From Rotaria socialis (lineage: Eukaryota), in assembly GCA_905331295.1 (NCBI GenBank), contig CAJNYD010000118.1:1-34831 (forward strand): DNA of 34,831 nt, written 5' to 3'. Position 1 is the stretch's first letter. The number at the start of each line of letters is the position of its first letter. This document shows positions 1 through 34,831 of the stretch, piece after piece. Position numbers and translations under genes: made by a program. The notes beneath the pieces were generated by a model that searched no databases, was not told the origin of the DNA, and saw only the letters and a program-made list of their open reading frames with translations.

Positions 1-42
1 CAGACGGAAAATTGATGTATGTAAGTGTTTTCAGTATCACAA
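1..42 (+). promoter_or_regulatory. 3' half of the SECIS element of an upstream array copy (gene lies outside the window)
   Basis: Positions 1-121 are identical to 8781-8901, which holds the 3' strand of the SECIS after the intact deiodinase-like copy. Confidence 0.75.
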
Positions 43-1397
43 TGATATAATTCATTATTTCCAGTGCAGTTTTTATTTTATGTTTTATGTTTTTAAATTG
101 AGATTAATAAAATTCACTTGAAATACATTTAAACATAGCGTTTTCCTTTTGTGGAATGGTTGTAAGTAGAGTTGCATTCATGTTGTGTTATCTGATTGAT
201 AAAAAATACTGATGCATCTCTGCGTTTATTTTAATAATTATTTTTTCATCAGTAACGGCAGTTACGAATTAATATACATATTCCAGAAACCTAGAAAATG
301 GACTTATTCCAATTAAAATTTATCTAGTAAACGTTGCTCCGATATTAAACCATATCCATGAATCGTTTTTCACAGATCTCGAATAAAACAAATTCGGGAT
401 CCTAATTTGGATGGAATTGAAATATGAAATACAGTTACACAATTACCATTTTTATCTTCTAGAGAGATTTTGTCAGTCTATCGTGTTCTGGAACATATTT
501 GTTGATTATTCTTGTTCAAATACTAGGACAAAAACGCTTGATATAGCATTGTGGTGTGTGACATGACCTTCATAAGTATCTGTCAGCTATCAATTAAATT
601 ATATTTTACAAAACATTGTTTTTTTCTTATTGAGATTCTATTCGAACATAGGAATACCTATCAGAAGAAATGCTATTTTTCATTTGTTTAGTGTTAACTA
701 TCAACAATGAACTCATCGATTTTATCATTCTACAATTGATTTAGCTGAGATTTTCAAGTTTTTTAAATTAAATTTATACGAAAACTAGATGAAAACAACC
801 TACTGTATTTTATGAACAGAACAAGAATTTCCCCCCGCTATGGCCACGTGAGACTAGCAGTGATAGGGCGTCAATATGCAGAACAATGTGGCTCTGCTAT
901 TTACGGGCAGAACTGGTGTAGCTTCCTTATAGCAAATATTTTGAAGCAAGTCGTTCGATTGTACTTTCGGTTTGTTCATCGTGATTGGTATTGATGTTTA
1001 CATTGAGATAGTCTTATTATGGGTACTAAAAAATTAAAGCAATGATGCCAAGTTTTATTCATCTGAGATGGCAGCATATCTCTTTTCAATGATGAATGCA
1101 AGTTGTTCCGTTTAATATTGAATGAGCCGCTTTATGTTGTCCTGTGTTAAACGACGCATAAGAGTTGGAAGAAAAACACTGCGGTATTTATTTAGTTTTT
1201 CTTCTGAAAAATAAAGATTCAAACAGAGATAGCTGTACGGCCAAAAGATGGCAATATCAGTCATATAATTGTGGTGGTAGTATAGAATCTAATTGGTGAT
1301 CGGGTCTATGAAAATCTAACATATAAGCCCAGGTCGAGCGTTACGACATTATTTCTCGTGTTACTTACCAGTTTCTACGTGTTCTTCACATCCGAAC

Positions 1398-2837: not shown

Positions 2838-4143
2838 ATGGGTAATTCCGTAGCTAATGCAACCAAACCAGAAACATCATCGGTTGTTAATAACACTGCA
2901 AAACTAACTTCCTTCGTTTATAAAGACCTAGTCTTGCATGTACAAGTCATTCAACAACAAACGATTGAAGTAGCGAAATATATTGATGATCAATGCAAAA
3001 CCGATGAAAAAATACGACAAAAATTGAAATCACGTTCATTCATATTTGTTGATCCTTATGGAAACCAAACAACGCATAAGTATTTAGATCATGAAATGAT
3101 GAATACAATATTTAGCAAGTACAAAAAAAATTATGTTCCGAAATATTTACAAAAATGGATAAAACTTGGAAAAATCAATGAAACCGGTATTTCACCATTG
3201 AATGAAAATGAACTGAAATCGTCAGTATCCGAACATGATGATGGTTATCGATTTGTTACATGTGGCGAAGTCAACATATCCATTATATATCGAGAAGACG
3301 TACGACCTCAAGCATTATTACTACCAGTTTTACTGACAGACAACTTAGCAAAGATTAAAAAACAAATCCAGGAACTTACAAAACTGAAAACTATGCAATT
3401 AAAATCGCTGCTTTTAAAAGAAAATTGTCCAATGATTACAGCATCCTGGAATGAAGGTAAAACACTCAACTCTAATGTCACTGTCTTGTCATCTAAATTG
3501 TATGAAAACAATTGTATCATTATGGTTAAACTATTGGAAGAGGTAAATTAATACTTTTGTTTAATTTCACATTTAGAAATCTGTTGCTATTTGATAGAGC
3601 GCGTCTACAGAATCCAGTTCCAATTTTGATATCTTTGCAAAAACTCTTACTGGAAAGACGATCACGATTGAAGTGAATTCTTCCATGGATATATCTACTG
3701 TCAAACAACTGATTCAAGATCAAGATGGTATTCCTCCAGATCAGCAACGTTTAATATTTGCTGGAAGTCAACTAGAAGACGAGCGAACTCTCTCACACTA
3801 TAAGATCCAAAAGGAAAGTACGCTTCACTTAGTATTACGTTTGCGCGGTGGTATGTTTCATTTTACAAGTGGGCGACATAATTTCGATGAATTACCATCC
3901 GCACAAGCTGAAGCAATAAGAAACGTTCTTGTATTCAAATTTGAGCATATTGATCATTTTGAAAATTTGGCACTGCCTGATCTACAAAATTCCGTTTTAC
4001 GATCACAAGCCTTACTCTTAGAATTACCCTCTGAAATTAAACACTATTCGGCGCCCCACGATGTTCCAAATTTTAAAAATATGATATTGCCAAATGTTTC
4101 TGATGATGAAGATGAAGATAGTTATGATTTTCTCGATGATTAA
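2838..4143 (+). CDS. Array copy A1: ubiquitin-domain protein, exons 2838-3542 and 3598-4143 (~416 aa), internal LRLRGG, ends TAA TGA
   Basis: A 55-nt GT-AG intron (3543-3597) joins the two ORFs in frame. Exon 2 encodes [14 protein letters not shown]...[42 protein letters not shown] (ubiquitin fold), then ~96 aa ending in an acidic tail. A probable 5'UTR intron runs 2275-2819; its donor GAAG|GTAATT is also present in copy A2. Confidence 0.85.
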
Positions 4144-4385
4144 TGACAATCCTCACTCCAACAACAACTACAAGTATTTCAATTCTTACAACATTATGTA
4201 CTCAAGCAATTACTTATTCAAGAAGAAAAAATGAGAGTTAGTCAACCAACACAACAATTATTAGCAAGCATTGAAGATCGAAAAGACATTGATTAGATGG
4301 ATATCATCGCTGATTTACAAACTGATTTAATCAAGACATTCCTAGGTGAAGATACGACACACCATGAAATTGAATATAGTTTAAG
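4144..4385 (+). pseudogene. Remnant post-stop extension (N-terminal helical part of the deiodinase-like moiety); the rest is deleted
   Basis: The frame stays open after TAA TGA ([33 protein letters not shown]...) until TGG>TAG at the conserved DWMD motif. It is homologous to 7730-7968 and ends at the same splice donor. Confidence 0.75.
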
Positions 4386-4386
4386 G

Positions 4387-4454
4387 TAGGGGTGGGCCAT
4401 TAACAGTAATTAATGTGATGCATTAAGTTCCGCTAAAAAAATGGTCCACCCCTA
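4387..4454. mobile_element. 68-bp hairpin with TAGGGG...CCCCTA termini (minimal TIR element) replacing the deiodinase exons
   Basis: TAGGGGTGGGCCATT...AATGGTCCACCCCTA. It sits between the exon donor and the 3' half of the SECIS. No TSD. Confidence 0.6.
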
Positions 4455-6417
4455 CTGCAGTCGGAAAATTGATGTATCTAATTCTTTTCGGTATCACAAT
4501 GATATAATTCATTGTTTCGAAAGAAGTTTCATTCAGGTTTTGTATTTTGAAAGCTGGATTAATTAGTTTTACTTTTTGCTTACAAAGTAGATCCGAAAAA
4601 ATTAATCACTTTGCCATAAGTTATTTTTTCGAATAATAAGGCCGAACGGTATTCGTGAGGCGTAGAAAGAAGGGATAATTTTAGATCAGATGCGATGTGA
4701 ATGAAATATTCGTACTCATATACACAATTACTTAAGCTGATTAGAGGATGATCCTTCGCTTCTGTCTTTTCGAGAAACAGGTTTATCTGTGTTCAATTTA
4801 CTCAATGGTACGTTAGTGCAATGAAGCAATGTTGAACCAAATAGAGCACGGAGTTATGAATGCTCTTAGGTTCTTGTATCGAACATGAAAGATATCTGCC
4901 CAAGTCTCTATTGATGAAAATTTGCTCATTTGGATCATGTTTTACAGAATAATCTGTTGTATTGCTAAAATATAATCGCAACATTCTCGTGCACCTGTGT
5001 TTTTGATAATGAAATTCAGGCAATTAAGCTGTTTAAAATCAATTCGACGCAGGCCTGAGAAATCGTTTAGTTGGGATTTTTGAATTGATTAAAATAAACT
5101 GAAGTTGCAAATCAGTGAAACAATATTTCTCGTCATGCAAATTTCAATATTTACTCTCTCAACTATTTCGTTACTGATTTTTCATGATTTCAATTACTTC
5201 ATTTGGCAATATATGCATTTTTTATTCAGTGATTTTGGAATCAAATCGATTTATAACTTTGTTAACACAAGTATTCCACGGAACTTGCCTTTTTGCGCCC
5301 TCAAAACATCATTGAAACTACAATGAATAATACATGTTTAATACAAAATCTTTTCCTGGTACTAAGAACAGGAAAGATATACTAGACGTTTTGTGTAACG
5401 AATCAGTTCGTGCTATAGTTTAGTCCTCGATGAAAAATAAAGGGCTTCTGCTTTTGCGTAGATCTGCTGCTGCCTGCCGTGTATATTTGCACATTTACTT
5501 GTAACGAAGTATTCATAGAGAAATCGACAAATTATTGTCGGTACAGCTTTGAGTGTAAGAGCAAGTTGAAAAGACCCCATATACGATAAAAGATAGCACG
5601 ACGGGAGAATTCTGGATGCGAAATATGGATTTTTCCAATGAAGATTCCTAATTAATGTATTTTATATGAAATCCATGAGTCACGTTGTTTAATTTACTAC
5701 ACACGCAACGATTGTAAAGAAATTGCGAAATTTTTTCTCATTTCTTTTCACATAGCGAATAGATAAATACGAAAACATTGCAACATCAATTGAAATTATG
5801 ACGACTCTATTTCTTACTTCTTTTAGAAATGGATGTACGTTGAGAATAAATATAGCACGTGGTAAAATAGTAGCACGGATTGTCGATATTCGCCCTGCAA
5901 AAGTATATAAGGCGTATTTTTCTATCACCCGGAGAAAAACACAATTTCTATTTTCTCTGTACGACTCTAATGATTCATTTATAGGCAAGAATTTATAAAA
6001 CGTTGCTTCACGCTGACTTTTTTTCATTTCTAAACGTTTCATAACAACGAATAGGTTGCGTCGATCAATGTAAGTATGTTTATCTCGCGAAAAAATAAAT
6101 CAATACGATAATCAACCAAAGCATTAAAAATTACTAATTTCAATTTTTTATGGCGCAACTTTCATGAGTCATGTAATATTTAGTGAGAATCAGCGTATTT
6201 TAGTTTTCTGATGACTTCACTAAAGACATTAGAGAACTTTGTTCCTTTACATTGCTCGTAATTTTACATCTACCTGGCAGAATAAAAGTTAGTAACACTC
6301 ACTAATTTCAACTATTGACTTCAATGAGAATAAAACAATTTTCTAAAAATAAAACAGTTTGGCATCGCAATTCATATGTTACTATCTGTGTAGTTTCAGA
6401 TAACAATTTGTTCTACC

Positions 6418-8683
6418 ATGAGTACATCAGGTCCTCCAGAGCCTAGTTCATCAGTCGCATTGACTGCAGTAACTCCTACAGTACCAACTTCATTCGTTTA
6501 TCAAGAGTTAGTACTTCATGTACAAACCATTCAACAAAAAATGATTACCATAGCCAAATTTATTGATGATCAATGCAAAACCGATGAAAAAATACGACAA
6601 AAATTGAAATCACGTTCATTCATATTTGTTGATCCTTATGGAAACCAAACAACAAATGAATATTTCGATCATGAAACCATTAGTACAATATTCAACAAGT
6701 ACAAGAAAGATTATGTTCCGAAATATTTACAAAAATGGACAAAACTTGGAAAAATCAATGAAACCGGTATTTCACCATTGAATGAAAATGAACTGAAATC
6801 GTCAGTATCCGAACATGATGATGGTTATCGATTTGTTACATGTGGCGAAGTCAACATATCCATTATATATCGAGAAGATGTAAGACCTCAATCATTATTA
6901 CTACCAGTTCTGCTGACGGACAACATAGAAAAGATTAAAAAACAAATCCAGCAACTTACAAAACTGAAAACTATAGAATTAAAATCGCTGCTTTTAAAAG
7001 AAAATTGTCCAATGATAACAGCGTCCTGGAATGAAGGTAAAACACTCAACTCTAATGACACTCTCTTGTCATCTAAATTGTATGAAAACAATTGTATCAT
7101 TATGGTTAAACTATTGGAAGAGGTAAATTAATACTTTTGTTTAATTTCACATTTAGAAATCTGTTGCTATTTGATAGAGTGCTTCTACAGAATCCAGTTC
7201 CAATTTTGAGATCTTGGTAAAAACTCTTACTGGAAAGACGATCACTATTAAAGTGAATTCTTCCATGAATATATCTACTGTCAAACAGCTGATTCAAGAT
7301 CTAGAAGGTATTCCTCCAGATCAGCAACGTATAGTATTCGCTGGAAAACAACTAGAAGACGAGCGAACTCTCTGTGATTACAACGTTCCAAAGGAGAGTA
7401 CGATGCACATAGTGTTACGTTTACGCGGTGGTATGTTTCATTTTACAAGTGGTCGACACAATTTCGATGAATTGCCATCCGCACAAGCCGCAGCAATAAG
7501 AAATGTCCTTGTTTTTGAATTTGAGCAAACTGATAATCTCGACAACTTGCCTCCGGCTGACCTACAAAATTCCGTTTTACAAGGGCACGCTTTACTAATG
7601 GAACTGCTGTCTGAAATTAAAAACTATTCGGTGCCTCACGATGTTCCACATTTGAAAAACATTATACTATCAGAGGCTGTTGATGACGAAGATGAAGACG
7701 GTGATGAGGAAACTTCTAATGATCAGTGACAATTACCAATCCAAAAACAACTACGAGTATTTCAATTATTTGAACATGATGTACTCAAACAATTACTTAT
7801 TCAAGAAGAACAAATGAGACTCAGTCAACAAACACAACAATTATTAGCAAGCATTGAAGATCGAAAAGACATTGATTGGATGGATATCATCGCTGATTTA
7901 CAAACTGATGTAATCAAGACATTTCTCGGAGAAGATGCAACACATGATGAAATTCAATATGGTCTAAGGTAACTATTCGACTTCATTGTAATTCTAAATC
8001 TTTGTTTTTGTTTCGTTGTAGTATATTACGAAGTGCTCATCAGATATATGCAGATGACAAGGAATTTCATAATTTATCTCTTTATGTTCGACATAATCGT
8101 GCAAAAAGAGGAAATCTTCGTGTTGGTGATCCAGCTATTGACATCGACTTACTAAATATGAATGGTGAATCTGTTTCATTATTGTCTCATTGTAATCCCA
8201 ATCGACCATTATTGATTCTTGCTGGTTCATATACTTGACCACCATTTCGTGGTCTTGTACCACAACTCAATCAGCTGATGGATTCCTATCGAGATCGTGT
8301 TGATATGATCACTGTTTACATCGAAGAAGCTCATGCAGTTGATGAATGGTAAATTATTTTAGGAAGTTTACTTTTTCTATATCTGTATAATGTTTTGTAG
8401 GCCAATCGGTAGTCGAATATGTTATGTTCAACCCAAATGTGATGTTGATCGAATTCAGATTGCAAATGATTTCATTAAAGCAACTGAATATCGTATTCCA
8501 CTATTGATTGATCCAGTATCAAAAACTAATCCATTCAGTGAAGTTTATTGTCCATGGCCGATTCGATTTTATGTGATTGATCATATGAAAAAGTTGAGTC
8601 ATATAGCTGAACCAATTGAAGGCTCCTTTCCATTGGAATTGATTCGAAATGCATTAGGTGATGCCATTCAACAATGTCAATAA
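6418..8683 (+). CDS. Array copy B1 (intact): ubiquitin-domain / deiodinase-like selenoprotein fusion. Exons 6418-7122, 7178-7968, 8022-8348, 8401-8683; in-frame TGA at 7727-7729 and 8236-8238 (Sec). 418 aa if stopped at the first TGA, 701 aa fully recoded
   Basis: Three GT-AG introns (55, 53, 52 nt) keep one frame. The ubiquitin domain ends LRLRGG (7427-7432). Deiodinase-family motifs are [14 protein letters not shown] and [12 protein letters not shown] (vertebrate DIO: RPLVLNFGSCTUPPF, YIEEAHxSDGW), plus [13 protein letters not shown] downstream. Probable 5'UTR intron 6070-6399. Confidence 0.8.
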
Positions 8684-8725
8684 AGTGTTTTTGTTGTTCT
8701 CAGAAATAATGATGATAAAATATTT

Positions 8726-8822
8726 TTGTGATATTGAAAATTTTAAAATGATATTTTTTGTTGAAAGCGTTTTAATGATGCAGACGGAAAATTGATGTAT
8801 GTAAGTGTTTTCAGTATCACAA
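8726..8822 (+). promoter_or_regulatory. Eukaryotic type II SECIS element
   Basis: Folded by hand. Helix I: TTGTGATATTGAAAA (8726-8740) / TTTTCAGTATCACAA (8808-8822). Core: ATGAT (8748-8752) / TGAT (8793-8796). Helix II: ATTTTTTGTT / GACGGAAAAT. Unpaired AAA at 8764-8766. Apical mini-helix GCGTT / GATGC. Confidence 0.85.
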
Positions 8823-11016
8823 TGATATAATTCATTATTTCCAGTGCAGTTTTTATTTTATGTTTTATGTTTTTAAATTGAGATTAATAAAATTCACTTG
8901 ATATATATATTCAAGGGTAATATTTACCTTCTGTTGAATTTCTTTTTATGATATCTGACAGGTTAAAAATTGTTGTACCTCGGCTTTTATTGTAATAATT
9001 TCTTTTTCAACAGCAAGGGCAGTGAAGAATAAGAACTTAAATGAATATTTTGGCAACATAGAAATGGACTTTTTCCAATTAAAATTTATCTGGTAAACGT
9101 CTCTCTAACATTGAACCATATCCATGAAACCTTTCTTTTAGAGATCTCTTGAATAAAACAAGTTCGGTATCCGAACCTGGATAGAATTAAAATATGAAAG
9201 ACAGTTACGCATTGACGATGTTTATCTTCTAGTGAGACCGTGACATTGTATATTTTTGTGGGACATACTAGCTTATTGTTCTTGTACTTATTTCTGGTCA
9301 ATTAGTATGACGAAAGCTCTCGATATAGCATTGTGGTATGTATCCTGATATCCATAAGTATCTATCAGCTAGCACTTAGATCGCGCCTTGGAAAATATAT
9401 TGTTTCTCTTATTGAAATTCTGTTCGAACTCCTTTTAACTATTGTTGTATTTGTTATGATTTGTAAAAGCGTTTTTTGTGAATTAGTTCGTTGATTATTG
9501 ATAATTATGTTAGAGTAAAACCATTTTGTAATGTTTTCGATATAATGACTGAATCGAGTTGTTATTGAAATTTAAACCAGACATTATCGGGACTACAACA
9601 AATAATATAGATTCAATAAGAAAAATTCCTGATGCTAAAATATCACCTGACATGTGCCAACTAAGAAAAAGAAACATTATAATCAAGAATAGTTTCATAA
9701 AACTACGGATATTATTCAGTTTCTCTTTTTGATAACATACAGACCATTTGCCTGAAACCATGCTACTCTTAGATGAAAACTCAGCTTACTATGTTTCAAT
9801 GAAAAAAATAAAAGCTTTTTGTCTCTATGACCACGCGAGAGTAGCAACAATAGGGTGTCCATACGTGAAACGATACGATTCTCCTCTTCGCACCCACACT
9901 TGGTATCGCTTCCTTATAGCAAATATTTTGAAGCAAGTCGTTTGAGTTTACTTTCCATATGTTCATCGTGGTTGATTTTCGTCCTTACATCGAAATACTC
10001 TTAGTATGGGTGCCCACTTATTGAAGCCATAGTTCAATTTTTATTCGTCTTATATGGTAAAAAATCTCTTTTTAATGATGAGTGGAAGCTGTTCCGTTTA
10101 CTACTAAATGAGTGTGCCATGTTGTTCGTTTTTAAATGGCACACAAGAGTTATAAGAAAAATACTACGATATTTATTCATTTTCTCTTCTGAAAAATAAA
10201 GGCTCCAAAATATAATTCTAGTAGCAGTATAGAATTTCATGTGTGAATTGGTTTCTGAAAAACTAAGATGCGAGTGGTGAAAATGTAAGTATACAGTTTT
10301 TACAATCAGTTTTCGAGAGTCCCCATTTTTGGAGATCACGTCATTTAATCTTTATGACGCATTGTCTTATCGGTAAAAGAAAAAATCCAACCTTGTCTCC
10401 ACTTAAAAAAATCCTTATGCAAAGTATATGAGAGCTGTTGTTACTTATTTTCTTTCATTCGTGCGCGACTCATAGTAACAAGTGAGAACATATTTTCCAT
10501 AGATAGAGAAAGAATGCGTTCGACAAATAGCTTGTGAATTGCCCACCATTATCACGAACTCATTCCCAACAACTTTGAAGGTAATTATTGACTAGTTTAG
10601 TCTTCAATTAGATTTTTACCAATAACAATGCGTTTAGCATGCTTTTGAGACCTAATCATTGCAATTCGTTATAAAAGGTGATTCATTCGTATTGACGAGT
10701 TTATGACACTACTTCTACTATCATTAAGATAAAAAGGAATATGTTTGTCCATAAAAGAAAATGCAGTTTGAATTTTCAATGGGTCATTGGAATAAATTTT
10801 CTCATTTTAAAAACTGAAATTTTTTGAAAAAACAACATCTTACTGTCCCTATAGATGAAACAAACCTCAAGTTTCCGAATTTATTTTGGAGAAAAAGATG
10901 ACGGTTAATAATCTTATGTAGCGACAATAACTCATAACATGTGTTAAAAGACTTTAAAAACAAAATTCATCTAGTTCAAATTCTATATTTACTTTCAGAT
11001 ACCCACTGGTTCAAAG

Positions 11017-12561
11017 ATGGACAATTCTGTCAGTGATGCAACCACATCAAAAGCAACATCGACGGCTGTTATTTCTAAATTGTCAACTGCCTTTGTTTAT
11101 GAAGATTTAGTCTTTCATGCACACGCCATTCGACAACAAAATATTGAAATTGCGACACTTATTGATAATAAATATAAAAATGACAAGAAAAAACGTAAAG
11201 AATTGAAATCTCGTTCATTAACATTTGTCGATCCCTATGGAAATCCAACAGCTAATGCATATTTCGATCATGAAACCATCAATACAATACATAGCAAGTA
11301 TAAGAAAGATTATGTTCCGAAATATTTACAAAAATGGATAAAACTTGGAAAAATGAATCAAAACGGTATTTCACCATTTAATGAAAATGAACTCAAATCG
11401 TCTGTATCCGAACATACTGATGGTTTTCGATTTATTACCTACGGCGAAGTCAACATATCGATTATATATTCTGAAAATAGACGACCTCATTCATTTATAC
11501 TGCCAGTTCTTCTGACTGAGAATATAGAAACCTTACAAGACAAATACAAAAACTTCAAAAATTAAACAATATCAAATTGAAATCACTAATTTTAAATGCA
11601 GATACTCAAATAAGTACAGCATGTTGGAATGAAGGTCAAAGACTCAAATCAGATGGCACTATCTTCTCATATAAATTATATGAAGACACTTGTATCATCA
11701 TGGTAAAAGCATTGGAAGAGGTAAATTAATAATTTCGTCTACTATTTCAGTAAAAAATAACTTTTATTTTTATAGAGCGCTTTCGGAGAAGCCTTGTTGA
11801 ATTATCAACTTTTTGTGAAAAATCTCACTGGAAAGACAATCATTATTGAAGTGAATCCTTCCATGGATATATCTACTGCCAAACAACTGATTCAAGATAT
11901 GGAAGGTATTCCTTCAGATCAACAACGTTTAATATTTGCGAGTAAAAAATTAGAAGACGAGCGAACTCTCTCCGATTACAACATCCAAAACGGGAGTATG
12001 TTTCACATAGTATTATGTTTACGCGGTGGTATGTATCATTTTACAAGTGGTCGACACGATTTTGATAAAATACCAAGCGAATCAGCCGAAGCAATAAGAA
12101 ATGTTCTTGTATTCGAATTTGAGCATACTGATCATCTTGAACATTTGGCACCGGTTGATGTACAAAATTCTGTTTTACGATCACAAGCCTTACTCTCAGA
12201 ACTACTCTCTAAAATTAAAAACTATTCCGTGTCAAGCGATGTTCCGAATTTGAAAAATATTATATTGCCAAATCTTATTGATAATGAAGATAAAGATAGT
12301 GATGATTTGTTCGATGATAAATGACAATCCTCGCTCCAAAAACAACTACGAGTATTTCAACTATTACAACATGATGTACTCAAACAATTACTTATTCAAG
12401 AAGAAGAAATGAGACAGTCAAGAAACACAACATTTATTAGCTACTATTGAAGATCGAAAAGACATTGATTGAATGGATATCATAGCTGATATACAAACTG
12501 ACTTAATCAAGACATTCCTAGGTGAAGATGCAACACACGATGAAATTCAATATGGTTTAAA
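11017..12561 (+). pseudogene. Array copy A2: frameshifted ubiquitin-domain gene, truncated before the deiodinase core
   Basis: Exon 1 (11017-11720) is 704 nt versus 705 nt in the other copies, from a 1-nt deletion near 11537; the homologous sequence resumes in another frame. Intron 11721-11775. Ubl ends LCLRGG. TGA CAA TCC at 12322. A 2-nt deletion lies near 12415. Homology stops at the donor at 12562. Confidence 0.75.
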
Positions 12562-12564
12562 GTA

Positions 12565-12896
12565 ATGATCAACTCGATTGGGGTAGCTTGTGCCACTCTC
12601 GGCAAAGATGTTTATTAGGCTACTTCAAGCATACAGAGTGTAACGACAAAACTAGAGACTGTCGCCTATGTCCGTCGACATGATGGCGTATTGTGTCATC
12701 TGACATCTCTAGTTGTCTCTCAACTTCATACATAACACACGTATATATAGGAGAGAGATAAAAGAGAGACAAGAAAGAGCTATATAAGAACAATGGAAAG
12801 AGAACAGAAAGAGAAGGAAGGAGAATCATCGGAGCGCGCCATCAATATCGGCACACCCTCCCACTCAGATCAGACGCTCTCCTGAGCGTCTTTACA
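12565..12896 (-). mobile_element. Possible LTR fragment
   Basis: On the minus strand it starts TGTAAAGAC, contains TATATA and a CT-rich tract, and has AATAAA (12611-12616). An inverted TGTAACGAC lies at 12639. No TSD found. Confidence 0.3.
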
Positions 12897-13648: not shown

Positions 13649-15999
13649 CCCAAGACACTCGATCCTGCCTCCGGATCCTGCCGGAACCCATCGGAACCAG
13701 CACCGGATCACTCCAGAAGCCGGCACCTTTCCCACTCAAATCTGGCAGGATCCGACAGGGATTTCGCCGGAATCTCTGCTCCCGGAATCCGGGCCGGAAA
13801 TCAAAGGAAAATGATCCGGTCGTTTCCTGCCGGATAACACAGCCGAACATTGTCGAAACCGATCGACGCCGACTACCGGATGATGCCGGGTTCACAAGGG
13901 TTTCACCACATATTTCGCCGGATTCCATCAGATTCCCGTGACAAGGACCACATAAAGAATCTCTCATAAAAGCGTTCTTCAATCACAAGATGGATCAACT
14001 GTACTCTTCAAGAAAACGCACAGCACCCCCCACAGCGAACACTATGAGAAAACTTGTAACCCAGAACGAACAACATCTGACTCACCTATATACACCCTTT
14101 GAATGATCCAGAACCATCCTACAATACATCGTATTCATTAAACTAATTATAAACTCGTTTACTGCGTCATCTTCTTGCATTTCCGTTTTTGGAAACATCG
14201 CTCCTAACATCATTTTGAACCGATCGAAATAATTAACAATTCCTGGAAAATCCTTCTAAATATCATTCCGGAACGTCACCACCATTTTTTTCATCAATAA
14301 ATATCATTCTAAACACATTTAAAGAGTCGTCCTTTCGCACACTAATTCAGCGAAAATCGCTCCAAACATCATTTTGCACCCATCGAAATCGTTGATAATT
14401 CACGGAAATTGGATCTGAATGAAACTCCAGGCCGCTCATCACTAACTTTTTCATGCAGTATTAACATTTTAAAAGTAAAAAACCAGGGATCTTATTCATC
14501 AAAACTTTTAAAAAAATTACACCACGCATCATTTTCCATCAACCCAAATATGGCATCAGTCGTAATGAATCGTTCAGATAATCATTCTCGATGGTTCCAA
14601 CTTACCTTTTCTTCATTAAACACGATTCTAAGCATCTTTCATTACAGAACTAACCGCACTTTCCTTCGACGAAAATCACTCCACAGCTTAACCTCGACTT
14701 ATCGAAAAATTCACTAAGATACGGAGATTCAGTCAGACAACGATTCTAGGTGTTTCGAACTTATCTTTTCTTCATGAAACAGAATTCTAAGCATCTTTCA
14801 TTACGGTTGCAGCCATAGTTTCGTTCGACGAAAATCACTCCACAGCTGAACGTGGACTTATCGAAAAATTCACTAGGATATTGAGAATCGTTCAGATAAT
14901 CATTCTCGATGGTTCCAACTTACCTTTTCTTCATTAAGCACGATTCTAAGCATCTTTCATTACGGAACTAACCGCACTTTCCTTCGACGAAAATCACTCC
15001 ACAGCTTAACCTGAACTTGTCGAAAAATTGACTAAGACATTGAGAATCGTTGAGATGAGCATTCTCGATGGTCCGAGCATAGCCTTTTTGCATGGAACAG
15101 GATTTTGAGCGACGCTCGAAAGCGGTTTGATGGGATGGTGAATTTTAATATTATGTGTAAGCAACATTGGAGCGTCCGCAAAAGCGTTTGTTGGTGATTT
15201 GAAATGATGCTTTTGGCGTTGTCAGACGGAGGAAGCACGTGTGTAACATGTTTTAAATTTTATCGAATTGCATAGAGGAAGAAGAGTCTGTGTACATGGG
15301 AAGCTTTGCTTGCCCGGAGTAGTCATTAATGGTTGTGGATTTGGGATTTGACGAGGAGTGGGGCGTAGAATTAAGTTATACTGACTGGAGTTATGATAAA
15401 CGAGTTGAGTGATATTCGTTCGGGTGGATAACTTCGTGTAGGATTAGTAAATACTTATTCATGTTGCTCATGTAGACTGATGGTTTGTATGTAAGCTATT
15501 GGATGAACGATAATTTTTGATTCGTGCTTTTCATCGGTTTTGTGAGCTGTTAACTACGGGTCGGAATGGATTATAGGATCTTCTTTTAGCATCTGGTAAT
15601 TAGTTGTAGATATTGTCTGTCAGATCTGTGCTTTTGTAAGTTGCATAACCCGGTGAGTAGAACCGTTCGGTTCTGATATGATCCGATTGGTTCCGGTGAG
15701 ACTGATTAAGCTGCATCTACCATGAAATCTAGCGTCATGCGCCACGGCGGCTTCCGGTAAAGTTTCGTCACCGGATATTGTGGGATCACGTCGTATACGG
15801 CCAAATCGTATTATATGACCTGATATTTTCCGGCAATGTAAATCTGGCCGGTTCTCGGAGAATCTGGCCACCAGATTTCATAAGAAAACAAAGAAAATCG
15901 TCGGAATTCACCAGAAATTAGCCAAACGAATCCGGTCACCATGTGACATCGGAATTATAACCCGTCCGACAAGAACCGACTGATCGATAATGACCTGGG
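13649..15999. mobile_element. Non-autonomous DNA transposon with CCC...GGG termini (CMC/EnSpm-like, tentative)
   Basis: Imperfect TIRs CCCAAGACACTCGATC / GATCGATAATGACCTGGG, flanked by ATA on both sides. Both ends have GC- and CCGG-rich subterminal regions. No transposase ORF. Confidence 0.6.
14568..15085. repeat. 159-bp tandem repeat, ~3.3 copies, inside the transposon
   Basis: Units start at ~14568, 14727, 14886 and 15045. They share ATTCTAAGCATCTTTCATTAC and TTCGACGAAAATCACTCCACAGCT. Units 1 and 3 are nearly identical. Confidence 0.85.
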
Positions 16000-21812: not shown

Positions 21813-22514
21813 GTACATGGTCAATTCATATGCAATCAATGTACTGTTTTTAATACGGCAGAAAGAGATGATTGGTTGAAGCATGTACGAAAATATCATT
21901 ACTCAGCATTCGTCCGTTTAGTCCGGGAGAGAGAAGGTTGTCCAACGGCTCTTAATGATCAACCACTTGCCAATATATCAGACAATGAAGTAATATGAAT
22001 GCTTAAAACATTTTAATAAAAAAAGTGCTTGGATATTTTTTGTATCGTTTAGGATGATGATGATGATGATGATGAAACGGCTAATATTGGTACACCACGT
22101 TTTGAATTTGATGCTTTAACAGCTAGCACAGATTCACATCGTCTTCCTTCTCAACGACGATTTCAACCAAGTCGTCCAGCATCGGGTGCAATTCCACGTG
22201 ATTTTATTCCTCAACGTCAGTTTCAACCAAATTGTCCACCACCTAATATAAATCAATATTGTTTTATTCCTCAACAACAATTTCAACCAAATCATGCGAC
22301 AACAGGTACAATTCCACGTGATTTTATTTCTCAACAATTGGAACAAAATCATCATGCAACAGCAAGCACATATCCAGGTGATTTTATTTCTCAACAACAA
22401 TTGCAGTTTGGTAATACAACAGCTGATCCACTTCAACAATCTCAAGTTCGTGATAAGACTATCAAGAAAGTTGGGAAATGTTTTCTCCCTGCGTTTATGA
22501 GACTTTCTGAATAA
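21813..22514 (+). pseudogene. Gene fragment: C2H2-type zinc-finger exon plus acidic / Q-P-rich repeat exon
   Basis: HGQFICNQCTVFNTAERDDWLKHVRKYH (C-x2-C-x13-H-x4-H). A GT-AG intron (21990-22052) joins it in frame to DDDDDDDE...(DFIPQxQFQPN)n. The 5' structure is unclear. Confidence 0.5.
22140..22420 (+). repeat. 60-bp (20-codon) coding tandem repeat, ~4.5 copies
   Basis: TTTTATT(C/T)CTCAAC recurs at about 22202, 22262, 22322 and 22382. The frame stays open throughout. Confidence 0.8.
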
Positions 22515-24378: not shown

Positions 24379-26289
24379 GTGCCTATCCTCTATTGACACC
24401 CACGCCCTCAAGGTTAATTCCATTGCGCATATCATACTTAACTTTATTTTCCTCATATGAGCATTTTCCTCGAAAGAATTTCTTGTTCCTCATTCAAGTT
24501 TTTCATTACACAAAAAGGTTAAAGTTTATGATGTATTACAATATAACACAATAACTCCCAGTCTCTCCACGACTATTGCAAATACCTCTTCAACCTTTGG
24601 GTATGGGTGTGACAAGAAGAACTATATCCATACCCACACCCACACCCTATCTGCCTTTACAATCGATATTAAGATGCAGCATTAATAAGTTGTAATGAAT
24701 CTGAACCACAATTTTTATGTTTCGTTTGAGATACAACAATACCAGTTTCATTTAGACACTTGGAATGTGACTTAAAAAAAACTACTATTTCTTTTTGTCG
24801 ATTTTACACCCTAGTCATGATATTTTTCAAACGAGTGTTAAGAAAGATGATACTATTTGGATTGATGATATTTTCCAACTTAGCAAATTTAACATTGACA
24901 TGTGTTCACTTACGGCACACATAATGAAAGATTCAAAAAGAAATTAATATCGAGAATAGGACATGTAGGTGGTGGTTCATCTTTTACATCTTGATAGAAG
25001 AAAGTAGCGATGAACTATTTCAAATATCAATATATCACATACTCGATATTCTCTATTCTTAGTCAATGATGTGCTTATTTGTAAACATTCATCTTTTTAT
25101 TCTACTAGCAAACTATGTTGCATTTTATGTCTTGTTCTTATCTAACTTTTAATACTTTAATAAGCTAGTAATTCAATAATAGATTATTTAATCCAACTGA
25201 GATAATTTTAGTTTCTGTTCGAGAGAGAAAATATTAAAATCTAAAACAAAATTCTATGATCAAAATCTTGATGCAAAGTTATAGTGCTCTGTCAAATAAT
25301 CGAGACTAAAATCTGGTAATATTGTTTTATAAATATGATTATGATCCACTTAAATTTAATTATGATTTTCAAACATTATTGATTGAATGATAACTGGGAG
25401 GAGGCATTCTGCTGGATGAAATGGAATTGTTTAAGGTGAAATCATTTTTTCATTCGATAGAATCTATCGAGACCAAAGATAGTCTACAATCGTATTATAT
25501 TGTTGAATTTTTTCTTTTCTAGTTATACTCATTATGTCGGCTTTGTTTTTATATGAAGATTCATCTTTAAAATAATCGAATGGCTAAGTTTCAGCTAAAA
25601 CCTTTTGTACTCAAACATTTTTTCACTTTGCTAAAAGTCACAGGATATCAGCATCGGTGTGCGACAGAGATGTGACTGATTCAGTTAAAAAAACACGAAC
25701 CAATTTCATCATTGTTGTGTAGATACTCATAAAAGGTTCACACCCACAACGGAACAAAAATAAAAAGCATTTTATTGACTACAGATACAAAGCAATATGT
25801 GAATCTAGTTACATTTATTAATTTTCCATTTATTTCTTTTTTAGTATGCTGCGGTAAACGTTCACTTGCAAATGGCAAGGCTTCAATATCACCATGCGAC
25901 GTTTCTGATCTTCGTTGCCGTGATTGGCTTCTTTTACAGTCAGCTTGTGAAAAATCTATTTCTGTTCTTCATTAAGTTTTATTAAAAACTATTGGTAAGA
26001 TTTTTCTATTTAGTAAATAATTTTATATATTGCATTTTTGGAATTATCTGAATCAATTAATATTCATAATACTTGCGGTAATGAATTAAAATTAATTGAA
26101 AGTAAGACAGTCATCGAAGCGGCTGAAATATTATTTCATGCTATTATTATCGACAAAAACATTAATTAATATAATCTATAAATTTTTATCATATTTATGA
26201 TATTCAAAAAAACAAACAAACAAAGACGGATGCATTTTCATAACGAAATCATATTTTAAAGATCTCATGTTGTTTTGTTCATATTTTAG

Positions 26290-26951: not shown

Positions 26952-27504
26952 CTATCGATACTGATGGTTTAGCTTGTCAAAGTCAAGATCAGCGAATATG
27001 GAATGGTGCTCGTTCAACTAAAGGAGTAAAAGGCAAAGGTAAATTGTTATTATTTACTTTGGTTTTCATATTTATTGTGTTATATGTTAGGTAGATATTA
27101 TTTTGAAATAACTCAAACTGATCCCAATGGTATTGCACGTGTTGGTTGGTCAGTACCAATAGCAATAATCGATCTTGGAACTGATAATCAAGGTTTTGTT
27201 TATGGTGGTACAGGAAAAAAGTCATTTGCAAAACAATTTGATGGTTATGATGAAACATTTGGTGTTAATGACACTATCGGAAGTTTCATTGATCTTGACC
27301 GAATGAAAATTCGATTTTTTAAAAATGCTTCGTTTAAATATCATCTTTTCATATAGAAATAATCTTCGATGTTTAGGCAAAGATCTTGGCCATGCATTTG
27401 ATCTTCCTCGTCCATTACAAAAGCATACATTTTTTGCACATGTTTGTTTGAAATCTACAGATGTTCGAGTATATTTAGGTGCAGAACCATTTAAAGGAAC
27501 ACCA
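26952..27504 (+). pseudogene. DDX1: DEAD-box helicase DDX1 SPRY-domain fragment (3 exons)
   Basis: AIDTDGLACQSQDQRIWNGARSTKGVKGK|GRYYFE...RVGWS...DLGTDNQGFVYGGTGKKSFAKQFDGYDETF...FFKN|GKDLGHAF matches the DDX1 SPRY insertion. The donor at ~27328 is CT instead of GT. No helicase core. Confidence 0.8.
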
Positions 27505-30625: not shown

Positions 30626-32082
30626 GTTCTGCACCTAAATTGACACGAACATCTGTAGATTTCAAACAAACATGTGCAAAAAATGTATGCTTTTGTAATG
30701 GACGAGGAAGATCAAATGCATGGCCAAGATCTTTGCCTAAACATCGAAGATTATTTCTATATGAAAAGATGATATTTAAACGAAGCATTTTTAAAAAATC
30801 GAATTTTCANTTGTTTGTTTTTTTGAATATCATAAATATGATAAAAATTTATAGATTATATTAATTAATGTTTTTGTCGATAATAATAGCATGAAATAAT
30901 ATTTCAGCCGCTTCGATGACTGTCTTACTTTCAATTAATTTTAATTCATTACCGCAAGTATTATGAATATTAATTGATTCAGATAATTCCAAAAATGCAA
31001 TATATAAAATTATTTACTAAATAGAAAAATCTTACCAATAGTTTTTAATAAAACTTAATGAAGAACAGAAATAGATTTTTCACAAGCTGACTGTAAAAGA
31101 AGCCAATCACGGCAACGAAGATCAGAAACGTCGCATGGTGATATTGAAGCCTTGCCATTTGCAAGTGAACGTTTACCGCAGCATACTAAAAAAGAAATAA
31201 ATGGAAAATTAATAAATGTAACTAGATTCACATATTGCTTTGTATCTGTAGTCAATAAAATGCTTTTTATTTTTGTTCCGTTGTGGGTGTGAACCTTTTA
31301 TGAGTATCTACACAACAATGATGAAATTGGTTCGTGTTTTTTTAACTGAATCAGTCACATCTCTGTCGCACACCGATGCTGATATCCTGTGACTTTTAGC
31401 AAAGTGAAAAAATGTTTGAGTACAAAAGGTTTTAGCTGAAACTTAGCCATTCGATTATTTTAAAGATGAATCTTCATATAAAAACAAAGCCGACATAATG
31501 AGTATAACTAGAAAAGAAAAAATTCAACAATATAATACGATTGTAGACTATCTTTGGTCTCGATAGATTCTATCGAATGAAAAAATGATTTCACCTTAAA
31601 CAATTCCATTTCATCCAGCAGAATGCCTCCTCCCAGTTATCATTCAATCAATAATGTTTGAAAATCATAATTAAATTTAAGTGGATCATAATCATATTTA
31701 TAAAACAATATTACCAGATTTTAGTCTCGATTATTTGACAGAGCACTATAACTTTGCATCAAGATTTTGATCATAGAATTTTGTTTTAGATTTTAATATT
31801 TTGTCTCTCGAACAGAAACTAAAATTATCTCAGTTGGATTAAATAATCTATTATTGAATTACTAACTTATTAAAGTATTAAAAGTTAGATAAGAACAAGA
31901 CATAAAATGCAACATAGTTTGCTAGTAGAATAAAAAGATGAATGTTTACAAATAAACACATCATTGACTAAGAATAGAGAATATCGACTATGTGATATAT
32001 TGATATTCGAAATAGTTCATCGCTACTTTCTTCTATCAAGATGTAAAAGATGAACCACCACCTACATGTCCTATTCTCGATA

Positions 32083-32568
32083 CACAGGAACAGAACTGCT
32101 ACAAAATATACTTAGATTTCGATTTCAAAATACAAAACATCTTGAACGTTTTCCCATGATTCAGTTACAAAATGCTATTTCAGAAGGGCATGCTTTGTTC
32201 TCTCAATTATTTTCCGAAGCTCAAAACTATAGAGTATCAAGCGATGTTACAAATTTAAAAAATATTATATTGCCAAATGTTACAGATGATCAAGATGAAG
32301 ATAGTGATGATTTTTCCGATGATGAATGACAATTACCAATCCAAAAACGACTACGAGTATTTCAATTATTACAACATGATATACTCAAACAATTACTTAT
32401 TCAAGAAGAACAAATGAGACTCAGTCAAGAAACACAACATTTATTAGCAAGCATTGAAGATCGAAAAGACATTGATTGGATGGATATCATCGGTGATTTA
32501 CAAACTGATTTAATCAAGACATTTCTCGGAGAAGATGCAGCACATGACGAAATTCAATATGGTTTAAG
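32083..32568 (+). pseudogene. 5'- and 3'-truncated array copy (post-ubiquitin linker, TGA CAA TTA, helical extension)
   Basis: ELLQNILRFRFQNTKHLERF...DDFSDDE* is homologous to the post-GG domain. The frame stays open after TGA (32327-32329) to the donor at 32569. The 5' end abuts the palindrome end. Confidence 0.8.
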
Positions 32569-32569
32569 G

Positions 32570-32636
32570 TAGGGGTGGGTCGTTAACATTAACTAATGTC
32601 ATTAATTAAGTTGGGTTAAAAAGTGGCCCACCCCTA
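32570..32636. mobile_element. Second copy of the TAGGGG...CCCCTA hairpin at the same deletion junction
   Basis: TAGGGGTGGGTCGTT...AGTGGCCCACCCCTA, followed by the SECIS 3' half remnant as at 4455. Confidence 0.6.
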
Positions 32637-34625
32637 ATGCAGTCGGAAAACTGATGCATGCAATTCATTTCAGTATCACAATGATATAATTCATTATATT
32701 TCGAAAAAAGTTGCATTCAGGTTTTGTATTTTGAAAGCTGGATTAATTAGTTTTACTTTTTGCTTACAAACTAGATCCGAAATAATTAATCACTTTGCCA
32801 AAAGTTATTTTTTCGAATAATAAGGCCGAACGGTACTCGTGAAGCTTAGAAAGAAGCGATAATTTTAGCTCATTTGGATCGTGTTGTACAGAATAATCTG
32901 TTGTGTTGCTGAAATATAATCGCAACACCCCCGTGCACCTGTGTTTTTGATAATGAAATTCAGACAATTAAGCTGTTTAAAATTAATTCGATGCAGGCCC
33001 GAGAAATCGTTGAGTTGAGATTTTTGAATTGATTAAAATAAAATGCAGTTGCAAATCAGTGAAACAATATTCCTCGTCATGCAACTTTCAATACTTACTC
33101 TCTCAATTATTTCGTTACTGATTTTTCATGATTTTAATTAATTGATTGTTGCTCGCAGCGATTTTGAAGTAAAATCGATTCATAACTTCGTCAACACAAG
33201 CATTCCACGGAAAATGCCTTTCTGCGCAGTCAAAACATTATTGGGACTACGATGAATAATACATGTTTAATACAGAATATTTTCCTGGTATTACTAAGAA
33301 CAGGAAAGATATACTAGACGTTTGGTTTAACGTTAATAATAAGACAATGAACACAATATTGAGAACATGATTGTTTGTGATTAGAAGTAATCGTTTTTCG
33401 GTGTGACATTCTTCTTTACACTGTACGTATCATCCTTATTTTGTATCGAAAAGAAAGTGTTCTTTGATCTGTTTGGTGCTTTTATTAATTCTTACTTAAA
33501 CGGGTCAGCTCGAGCTATAATTTAATGCTTTTGTGTAGGTCTACAGCTGCCTGCTGTGTATATTTGCACATTTACTTGCGACGAAGTATTCATAGAAAAA
33601 TCGACAAATTATTGTCGGTACAGCTTTGAATGTAAGAGCAAGTTGAAAAGATCCCAAATACGATAAAAGATAGCATGAGGGCAAAATTCTGGATACGAAA
33701 TATGGATATTTTCAACAATTGTGAATGTTCTTGAATTCTCTACTTGCTTTAAAAAAAGAGCTGAAAATTCTTCGACAATGCTATCGTTTAGATAAAATCC
33801 TAATGATGAAATTACAAAAGTATAGTATAAAAAATATTTTCCAATGAAGATTCCTAATTAATGTATTTTATATGAAATCCATGAGTCACGTTGTTTACTT
33901 TACTACACACGCAACGATTGTAAAGAAATTGCGAAATTTTTTCTCATTTCTTTTCACATAGCGAATAGATAAATACGAAAACATTCCAACATCAATTGAA
34001 ATTATGACGACTCTGTTTCTTACTTATTTTAGAAATGTATATAGGCTGAGAATAAATATAGCACGTGGTAAAATAGAAGCACGGGTTGTCAATATTCTTC
34101 CTGCAAAAGTATGTAAGGCGCATTTTTCTATCACTCGGAGAAAAACGCAATTTCTATTTTCTCTGTACGACTCTAATGATTCATCTATAGACACTAATTT
34201 ATAAAACATTGCTTCATGCTGACTGTTTTTCATTTCTAAACGTTTCATAACAACGAATAGGTTGCGTCGATCAATGTAAGTATGTTTATCTCGCGAAAAA
34301 ATAAATCAATACGGTAATCAACCAAAGCATTAAAAATTACTAATTTCAATTTTTTATGGCGCAACTTTCCTGAGTCATGTAATATTTAGTGAGAATCAGC
34401 GTATTTTAGTTTTCTGATGACTTCACTAAAGACATTAGAGAACTTTGTTCTTTTACATTGCTCGTAATTTTACATCTACCTGGCAGAATAAAAGTTAGTA
34501 ACACTAAATAATTTCACCTATTGACTTGAATTAGAGCAAAACAATTTTCTAAAAAAAAAAATTTGGCATTGCAATTCACTTATATGTTACTATCTGTGTA
34601 GTTTTAGATAACAATTTGTTTTACC

Positions 34626-34831
34626 ATGAGTACATCAGGTCCTCCAGGGGATAGTTCATCAGTGGCATTGACTGCCGTAACTCCTACGATGCCAACTTCA
34701 TTCGTCTATAAAGAGTTAGTACTTCATGTACAAACCATTCAACAAAAAATGATTACCATAGCCAAATTTATTGATGATCAATGCAAAACCGATGAAAAAA
34801 TACGACAAAAATTGAAATCACGTTCATTCAT
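34626..34831 (+). CDS. Array copy B2, 5' part (runs off the window)
   Basis: ATG AGT ACA TCA GGT CCT CCA... is highly similar to 6418 onward. The upstream 32637-34625 matches 4455-6417. Confidence 0.8.
   Translation, partial: MSTSGPPGDSSSVALTAVTPTMPTSFVYKELVLHVQTIQQKMITIAKFIDDQCKTDEKIRQKLKSRSF

What the first reader, a model, noticed from the sequence alone, without database searches (positions are those of the whole stretch)
8180..8822. Hidden selenoprotein: GSYT-U-PPF deiodinase active site plus a canonical type II SECIS
Seen: the ORF track stops at TGA 8236-8238, but the frame continues [37 protein letters not shown]. About 45 nt after the TAA there is a hairpin with an AUGA/GA core, a 10-bp helix II, unpaired AAA, an apical mini-helix and a 15-bp helix I. 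Known: this TGA aligns with the catalytic Sec of iodothyronine deiodinases (SCTUPPF). Inference: a Sec-dependent dehalogenase or redox enzyme with unknown substrate. A single SECIS could also act on the upstream UGA.
Basis: partly seen in the sequence, partly recalled or inferred. Interest (0 to 1): 0.75.

Follow-up and report, generated by a model that had tools for sequence, protein, structure and literature searches.

The report
Rotifer selenoprotein behind a leaky stop
A bdelloid rotifer gene carries two in-frame stop codons on one spliced messenger RNA: the first is likely a leaky, virus-style stop after a ubiquitin-like protein and the second likely encodes selenocysteine in a deiodinase-like enzyme domain, so the enzyme would be made only when the ribosome reads through both.

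Summary
TGA 8236-8238 sits at the catalytic position of a deiodinase-like (DI-like) domain (Pfam E 5e-15; Cys in fungal homologues). A type II SECIS follows, with matching hairpins in two related loci. The window is a bdelloid rotifer, near Rotaria socialis. The larger result lies upstream. The Sec domain is the tail of a 4-exon, 701-codon frame that starts with three ubiquitin-like domains and is interrupted at codon 419 by a second stop (TGA 7727). That stop is kept at the same place in 8 of 8 DNA copies examined, is TAG in one intact copy, and is always followed by CAA-TY (the tobacco-mosaic-virus CARYYA readthrough signal in 5 of 8). It is Ser in Didymodactylos and in one unnamed homologue. 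The 50 codons after it are under purifying selection, and spliced RNA contigs of relatives cross it uncut. Glomeromycete fungi encode the ubiquitin-DI fusion without a break. Most likely one mRNA gives a short poly-ubiquitin-like protein and, by readthrough plus Sec insertion, a long selenoenzyme. Sec machinery, readthrough itself and the substrate are untested. This scan's notes held nothing on it.

The parts
6418..7122 (+). Exon 1 CDS (codons 1-235): long helix plus two predicted ubiquitin-like (beta-grasp) domains
   Evidence: model of homologue P0031 and its match to linear tri/tetra-ubiquitin
7123..7177 (+). Intron 1 (55 nt, GT-AG)
   Evidence: skipped in contigs of X1, X3, X6
7178..7968 (+). 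Exon 2: ubiquitin domain, LRLRGG, helical segment, acidic linker, stop 1, then 79 further codons of the DI-like N-terminal helical region
7211..7432 (+). Canonical ubiquitin domain ending in LRLRGG (codons 315-320), a predicted deubiquitinase cleavage site
   Evidence: Pfam PF00240 E 8e-24; GG in 31 of 33 homologues
7727..7735 (+). Stop 1 (TGA, codon 419) followed by CAA TTA: CARYYA-type readthrough context
   Evidence: motif from PMC4132726 and PMC5397192
7969..8021 (+). Intron 2 (53 nt)
   Evidence: skipped in contigs of all 4 runs laid
8022..8348 (+). Exon 3: DI-like thioredoxin-fold domain, first half ([19 protein letters not shown])
   Evidence: Pfam PF00837 E 5.4e-15; Dio3 4TR3 E 1.3e-9 for the 92%-identical homologue P0001
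8236..8238 (+). Stop 2 (TGA, codon 571): predicted selenocysteine
   Evidence: TGA in 5 of 5 related loci; Cys in fungal homologues; unchanged in a spliced contig of X2
8349..8400 (+). Intron 3 (52 nt)
   Evidence: skipped in contigs of X1, X2, X6
8401..8683 (+). Exon 4 CDS: second half of the DI-like domain, TAA at 8681-8683
8726..8822 (+). Type II SECIS: helix I, AUGA(8748)/UGAU(8793) core, 10-bp helix II, AAA 8764-8766, mini-helix
8886..8926 (+). AATAAA signal (8886) and poly(A) addition region, downstream of the SECIS
   Evidence: poly(A) loose ends at 8926 (X1) and 8893 (X6)

Best explanation
One spliced mRNA carries two in-frame stops and likely yields two proteins: most ribosomes would stop at TGA 7727 and release a 418-residue protein with three ubiquitin-like domains, while a minority would read through that stop, helped by the CAA-TTA signal behind it, and would then insert selenocysteine at TGA 8236 under the 3'-UTR SECIS to finish a 701-residue ubiquitin-DI-like fusion. 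The residue put in at stop 1 is probably unimportant (disordered linker; Ser in homologues without the stop). Deubiquitinases would likely cut after LRLRGG and free a 381-residue soluble selenoenzyme, or a 98-residue stub from the short form. The enzyme most likely uses its Sec as the nucleophile of a thioredoxin-fold reductive reaction (dehalogenation of a haloaromatic, or peroxide/thiol reduction), not thyroid-hormone deiodination. Shown: gene structure, both stops on spliced contigs, conservation, the hairpin, the Ser and Cys homologues. Inferred: readthrough, Sec insertion, cleavage, chemistry.
For: (1) Stop 1 is at the same place and frame in 8 of 8 DNA copies that cover it (4 window copies, L001, L002, L003, L005), with no indel in the next 28 codons in any copy. 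(2) It is TGA in 7 and TAG in 1 (L003, which has an intact DI domain and SECIS). All 8 continue CAA-TY and 5 of 8 are exact CARYYA, against 14 of 6297 stop triplets in the same DNA. L003 equals the TMV context and L002 the plant eRF1-1 context quoted in PMC5397192. PMC4132726 reports similar readthrough with UGA or UAG before CARYYA, about 15% in its reporter. (3) Didymodactylos carnosus P0217/P0220 and unnamed P0216 have Ser at this position in one frame; P0220 runs on to GSYT. (4) Codons 1-50 after stop 1 have pN/pS 0.34, like the 0.35 further downstream; the two shifted frames give 0.95 and 1.81 and hold 11 and 13 stops (4 sequences, uncorrected proportions). (5) Glomeromycete fungi and unnamed P0046 encode ubiquitin...GGM..TSG..DI-like as one frame, the fungi with Cys at the Sec site. 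(6) Single spliced contigs in X1 (7232-8921) and X6 (7276-8800) cross both stops and reach the SECIS, with no change at 7727-7735 and no joint there. (7) In the model of P0220 the Ser lies in a low-confidence linker (408-437) and the segment after it forms confident helices (position). (8) A DI-less paralogue in L003 ends TAG GAA, and 2 of the 4 copies with a dead DI part (window 4141, L005) have a second stop just before stop 1.
Against: No protein or ribosome data: readthrough and Sec insertion are unobserved. No genome was held, so tRNA-Sec, eEFSec and SBP2 are unchecked, and no paper seen places them in bdelloids. L001, an intact copy, has CAA TCT, one letter off the motif. The Ser-bearing homologues also continue Q-S, so part of the motif may be inherited protein sequence. 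Only 4 intact-looking copies had DNA. All 15 NCBI gene models with this segment listed bridge stop 1 with a predicted intron. Rfam SECIS_1 stays below threshold. Among 30 bdelloid-like proteins fetched, 16 end at the Sec site, 8 show Trp (5 of them NCBI Rotaria records) and 2 Arg, so Sec-less copies exist. The RNA contigs come from relatives, are only guessed to be RNA, and drop rare isoforms. No conserved stem-loop after either stop (z between -0.7 and +1.5).
Confidence: 0.7

Rival explanations
1. Both UGAs are decoded as selenocysteine by the single SECIS, giving a two-Sec protein whose passage through stop 1 depends on selenium.
For: Stop 1 is UGA in 7 of 8 copies. A eukaryotic 3'-UTR SECIS can serve more than one upstream UGA (established knowledge, selenoprotein P). 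It could act on top of leaky readthrough in UGA copies.
Against: TAG in L003, whose DI domain and SECIS are intact. Ser, not Cys, in homologues. Disordered position. CAA-TY kept behind the stop.
Confidence: 0.1
2. A minor alternative splice removes stop 1, as the NCBI gene models assume, so only the Sec recoding is needed.
For: 15 NCBI models join the linker to the HDVLK-type segment. L001-L003 have an AG before that segment. The window has a possible 57-nt GT-AG pair 7701-7757.
Against: The models join at many different points. L001 has no frame-keeping donor within 70 nt, and that AG is missing in the window copies. X1 and X6 lose the GT at 7701 and show no joint. The supposedly intronic 15 codons are stop-free, constrained (pN/pS 0.62) and coding in P0216/P0217/P0220.
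Confidence: 0.08
3. Two separate proteins: the DI-like enzyme is made by re-initiation, internal initiation or trans-splicing at Met 7814 or Met 7880.
For: In-frame ATGs exist at 7814 and 7880. Stand-alone DI-like proteins of about 250 residues occur in other eukaryotes.
Against: The 7814 position is Leu or Ile in 14 of 15 NCBI homologues. Starting at 7880 would drop 50 constrained codons that form confident helices. No loose leader sequence near 7730. Zero spacer between the frames.
Confidence: 0.07
4. Stop 1 is a tight stop and the DI part is a decaying, untranslated relic of an ancestral fusion.
For: The other tandem copies seen in the window lack the DI exons, L004 and L005 carry stops in the domain, and Trp/Arg variants of the Sec codon exist.
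Against: Intact domain, Sec codon and SECIS in the window, L001 and L003 at 75-80% protein identity; purifying selection; spliced, polyadenylated contigs.
Confidence: 0.05

Closest known systems
DI-like (deiodinase-like) selenoproteins of Dictyostelium, fungi, protists and bacteria (PMC2375036; bioRxiv 10.1101/314781; passages read)
   Same: PF00837 domain, Sec at the deiodinase catalytic position, type II SECIS in the 3' UTR, no known thyroid-hormone context.
   Different: Here the domain is the C-terminal part of a poly-ubiquitin-like fusion and lies behind an additional, non-Sec stop.
Iodothyronine deiodinases Dio1-3 (PDB 4TR3, 9H48; PMC7506546, passages read)
   Same: S-x-T-U-P-P, Tyr and Glu-His of YIEEAH, the AHxxDxW loop, and an Arg aligned with that of ERLY.
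   Different: Tyr for the Cys of SCTU, no His in the QHR motif (His219), no membrane anchor, about 30% identity (read from the alignment).
TMV replicase UAG-CARYYA readthrough and plant eRF1-1 UGA-CAA-UCA readthrough (PMC4132726, PMC5397192, PMC7026636; passages read)
   Same: Stop followed by CAA-TYA, UGA and UAG interchangeable, short and long products from one mRNA; as in eRF1-1, introns lie downstream of the leaky stop.
   Different: An animal chromosomal gene whose extension is a whole enzyme that itself needs a second recoding event (Sec).
Glomeromycete ubiquitin-ZZ-deiodinase fusion proteins (Rhizophagus CAB4476445, Ambispora CAG8580994, Cetraspora CAG8555950)
   Same: Same order: ubiquitin repeats, LRLRGG-M, helical segment, DI-like domain.
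   Different: One open frame, Cys instead of Sec, often a ZZ zinc finger; only database annotation was found, no characterisation.
Insect SPS1-UGA (PMC4561486, passages read)
   Same: Non-Sec readthrough of a conserved UGA, with a viral-type hexanucleotide, in a selenoprotein family.
   Different: There the read-through UGA is the former Sec codon and the SECIS is gone; here readthrough and SECIS-dependent Sec are at two different codons of one mRNA.

Membership tests
Eukaryotic SECIS-dependent selenoprotein | In-frame UGA conserved in homologues and aligned with Cys or Sec | tested here: met
   TGA in 5 of 5 loci; Cys in fungal homologues; aligns with the Dio3 catalytic position
Eukaryotic SECIS-dependent selenoprotein | SECIS with UGAN/KGAW core, apical adenines, helices I-III (definition in PMC3753652) | tested here: met
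   UGAU/UGAU core, AAA, three helices; same core in L001 and GGAU in L003
Eukaryotic SECIS-dependent selenoprotein | Passes a curated covariance model | tested here: inconclusive
   Rfam SECIS_1 in register but 18.4 bits against gathering 35; SECISearch3 not available
Eukaryotic SECIS-dependent selenoprotein | SECIS lies within the mature mRNA | tested here: met
   X1 contig runs to 8921 with poly(A) at 8926; the X6 contig matches to 8800 and then diverges; relatives, not this individual
Eukaryotic SECIS-dependent selenoprotein | Genome encodes tRNA-Sec, eEFSec, SBP2, SPS2 | not testable with these tools
   no genome held; loci not searchable as records
Iodothyronine deiodinase (Dio1-3) | PF00837 domain with Ser/Thr/Sec/Tyr/Glu/His/Trp core | tested here: met
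Iodothyronine deiodinase (Dio1-3) | His219-equivalent (substrate binding) | tested here: not met
   gap against QH in the Dio3 alignment (run with homologue P0001; the window has the same YVQPKCD)
Iodothyronine deiodinase (Dio1-3) | N-terminal membrane anchor | tested here: not met
   highest 19-residue hydropathy 0.93 over the whole frame
Iodothyronine deiodinase (Dio1-3) | Deiodinates T4 or T3 | not testable with these tools
   needs an assay
CARYYA (TMV-type) stop-codon readthrough | Stop followed by CARYYA | tested here: met
   window TGA CAA TTA; exact in 5 of 8 copies, CAA-TY in 8 of 8
CARYYA (TMV-type) stop-codon readthrough | Conserved coding frame beyond the stop, residue identity unimportant | tested here: met
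   pN/pS 0.34; TGA, TAG or Ser at the site; disordered linker
CARYYA (TMV-type) stop-codon readthrough | Measured readthrough that depends on the six bases | not testable with these tools
   needs a reporter assay
Ubiquitin-fusion precursor | Ubiquitin fold ending in LRGG followed by a fused polypeptide | tested here: met
Ubiquitin-fusion precursor | Cleavage after GG | not testable with these tools
   inferred from the motif only

The most novel reading that the evidence does not exclude
Bdelloid rotifers use a chromosomal mRNA with two different recoding events in series: TMV-type stop readthrough gates access to a selenocysteine codon. This sets the ratio of a conjugatable tri-ubiquitin-like modifier to a selenium-dependent dehalogenase/reductase, and would tie mRNA survival (NMD) to both termination fidelity and selenium supply. 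The locus, possibly acquired from a fungal or protist donor, toggles in evolution between Ser and leaky stop.
Probability: 0.6. Interest if true: 0.82.

Novelty: new variant of a known kind. Interest (0 to 1): 0.72.

Why it matters
Verified readthrough in animal chromosomal genes is uncommon, and the CARYYA class is known mainly from plant viruses and plant eRF1-1 (papers). A gene in which readthrough must precede Sec insertion gives a natural test of how termination, near-cognate decoding, Sec decoding and NMD compete on one mRNA, with UGA, UAG and Ser alleles already available. It also suggests that bdelloids make selenoproteins, which the papers seen here do not report. It shows that public bdelloid gene models mis-annotate this family at both stops. 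The ubiquitin-DI fusion shared with mycorrhizal fungi gives a soluble handle on what DI-like enzymes do outside thyroid biology.

Tried and rejected
No whole genome held and the loci are not searchable as records, so Sec machinery was not tested; ARAGORN on the 5 short loci found no tRNA (uninformative). Viral contigs: 3 scans found no relative; genome contigs: none. The ESM Atlas was busy twice and gave no answer. No holder of the stretch is on record as RNA; the runs laid are guessed RNA and were judged by their spliced joints and poly(A) ends. A stem-loop after either stop was looked for and not found. A 19-row tree groups the 15 bdelloid rows (99/96) apart from the fungal rows but leaves 9 of 16 inner branches open. 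The two Ser rows fall among stop-bearing rows, so I make no claim on whether Ser or stop came first. Horizontal transfer was not tested: no animal deiodinases were in the tree. My own 3-sequence covariance model recovers its training sequences by construction and adds only the half-SECIS remnants. A first hand-set exon model was one base off and was corrected. Literature searches: bdelloid + stop codon readthrough, 0 papers; bdelloid + selenoprotein + deiodinase, 1 paper, unrelated on reading its passages; UAG readthrough + selenocysteine + SECIS + same mRNA, 1 review whose passages describe no such case; searches listed nothing on this gene family. Subscription papers are not searched and no supplements were opened; species tables in the supplements of PMC5330540 or PMC4561486 may list rotifer Sec machinery. 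The scan's own notes held only unrelated findings.

Full report
Setting. The window is AT-rich eukaryotic DNA with 52-55-nt GT-AG introns. All named close homologues are bdelloid rotifers. A Rotaria socialis protein is 99% identical to codons 1-418 over 354 aligned residues, so the window is R. socialis or very near it. No genome was held.

Observation. The TGA at 8236-8238, the frame behind it and the hairpin are as described. Exon 3 matches Pfam T4_deiodinase at E 5.4e-15. The hairpin has the UGAN/KGAW core, apical adenines and third helix that PMC3753652 gives for type II SECIS elements (passages). It folds at z -5.2. Rfam SECIS_1 aligns in register but below threshold (18.4 against 35 bits). 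Two of the 5 metagenome loci include an intact 3' end (L001, L003) and both carry the same element. 41 of 42 cells pair and 3 of 14 pairs change on both sides, which beats all slid controls but not the column shuffle at this sample size. The Sec codon is TGA in 5 of 5 loci. Among the 150 best representatives, a pattern for the site was found in 54: 27 end there, 17 show W (in metagenomic gene calls probably TGA read as Trp, an inference), 9 Cys and 1 Ser.

Gene model. Exons 6418-7122, 7178-7968, 8022-8348 and 8401-8683 give 701 codons with stops at 419 and 571. Contigs from four runs guessed to be RNA skip these introns. One 1585-nt contig in X1 covers 7232-8921 with poly(A) at 8926, and one 1553-nt contig in X6 covers 7276-8800. 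Both cross 7727-7735 unchanged and with no joint. They are from relatives, and contigs cannot show rare isoforms or levels.

What precedes the selenoenzyme. Codons 1-418 hold a ubiquitin domain ending LRLRGG. A model of a homologue (pLDDT 74.5) shows three beta-grasp units and best matches linear tri- and tetra-ubiquitin chains. Of 19 homologues that lack the downstream segment, 18 end in an acidic tail of the SN-D/E-Q type at this stop. Many paralogues have no DI domain, so the short product is likely functional by itself.

Stop 1. Eight DNA copies cover it: window 7727 TGA CAA TTA; window 32327 TGA CAA TTA; window 4144 (TAA) TGA CAA TCC; window 12322 TGA CAA TCC; L001 TGA CAA TCT; L002 TGA CAA TCA; L003 TAG CAA TTA; L005 (TAG) TGA CAA TTA. 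PMC5397192 quotes TAGCAATTA for TMV and TGACAATCA for plant eRF1-1 (passages and abstract). PMC4132726 reports that CARYYA works about equally with UGA and UAG (passages). Only 14 of 6297 stop triplets in the DNA held are followed by CARYYA, these sites included; the copies are related, so this is no independent-trial statistic. Among the four intact-looking copies the first four bases after the stop are invariant and the next twelve are not. The 50 codons up to the first generally conserved Met have pN/pS 0.34, against 0.35 downstream; the first 15 codons alone give 0.62. The strongest evidence is that Didymodactylos carnosus (P0217, P0220) and an unnamed Logan protein (P0216) have Ser at this position in one open frame, and P0220 continues to GSYT, the Sec site. 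Further out, Rhizophagus, Ambispora, Cetraspora and Acaulospora encode ubiquitin repeats, LRLRGG-M and the DI-like domain in one frame with Cys. In the model of P0220 the Ser (residue 429) lies in a disordered linker, and the segment after it starts a run of confident helices.

Rivals. Sec at stop 1 fails for L003 (TAG) and the homologous residue is Ser, though Sec may be inserted at times in UGA copies. Splicing across the stop is what 15 NCBI models assume, but they join at varied points, no donor is shared (none in L001), the window lacks their acceptor, and the contigs show no joint. Internal initiation at 7814 is unlikely because that residue is Leu or Ile in 14 of 15 models. A dead relic is unlikely given selection and the kept SECIS, although dead and Sec-less copies exist.

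Mechanism. Inferred: most ribosomes terminate at 419. A fraction insert a near-cognate residue and go on to 571, where the SECIS, 457 nt downstream in the spliced mRNA, directs Sec. Cleavage after LRLRGG would free a 320-residue tri-ubiquitin-like piece with a C-terminal GG and either a 98- or a 381-residue product. Two introns lie downstream of stop 1, the arrangement in which readthrough partly protects plant eRF1-1 mRNA from NMD; whether rotifer NMD works that way is unknown. The enzyme keeps the Ser, Thr, Sec, Tyr, Glu, His and Trp of the Dio3 core but lacks the SCTU Cys, the His219 equivalent and a membrane anchor (residue roles from PMC7506546, passages). It works like a deiodinase chemically but should be filed as DI-like, the group reported from Dictyostelium (PMC2375036, passages) and from fungi, invertebrates, protists and bacteria (bioRxiv 314781, passages).

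Novelty. Each part is known: DI-like selenoproteins, SECIS, CARYYA readthrough, ubiquitin fusions. Their combination on one animal mRNA was not found in ten literature searches, which cover open-access text only. The nearest published case read is insect SPS1-UGA (PMC4561486, passages), where non-Sec readthrough replaces Sec at one codon. PMC5330540, PMC4561486 and PMC3499245 (term searches) do not mention rotifer Sec use in their main text. From memory, not checked here: Euplotes mRNAs that read UGA as both Cys and Sec are another case of two recodings in one message.

Verdict. The Sec codon and SECIS are very likely real (about 0.9). A full-length product across stop 1 is likely (about 0.85). 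CARYYA-type readthrough is the best mechanism (0.7 for the whole statement). New variant of a known kind; interest 0.72.

Noticed in passing
window 1-647, 2838-4560, 11017-12565, 32242-32872, 33837-34831: At least five further whole or partial copies of the gene unit (77-95% identical). Only the copy at 6418-8926 has the DI exons inside the window. Position 1-51 is the 3' half of another SECIS cut by the window edge.
   Followed up: partly
window 4387-4454 and 32570-32636: In two copies a 67-68-nt element with short GC-rich terminal inverted repeats and TA ends (MITE-like) stands where intron 2, exons 3-4 and the 5' half of the SECIS should be: a shared insertion-associated deletion.
   Followed up: partly
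window 4141-4146 and L005 282-287: Two copies with a dead DI part have a second stop directly before the leaky stop, as if readthrough into the dead extension had been shut off; two other dead copies have not.
   Followed up: partly
   Followed up: no
L002 1343-1710: This relative lacks intron 3: the DEW-PIGSR junction is continuous in the contig although introns 1 and 2 are present.
   Followed up: no
L003 1-6318: Tandem array of four ubiquitin-like paralogues; only one of the three seen to their end has the leaky stop and DI domain.
   Followed up: partly
window 24948-26219 and 30811-32082: 1272-nt inverted repeat at 99.6% identity enclosing nested inverted repeats (27304-27487/30626-30809 and others), probably a foldback-type element or recent inverted duplication. 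A short SPRY-like frame (my reading, not searched) lies at 27075-27356.
   Followed up: no
window 14567-15072 and 22150-22402: Tandem arrays of 159 nt (3.2 copies) and 60 nt (4.2 copies).
   Followed up: no
proteins P0048, P0054, P0055, P0056, P0058, P0099, P0075, P0046: A ubiquitin-(ZZ)-DI-like fusion family in glomeromycete fungi, Chlamydomonas sp. UWO 241 and an unnamed organism, with no description found in the searches run.
   Followed up: partly
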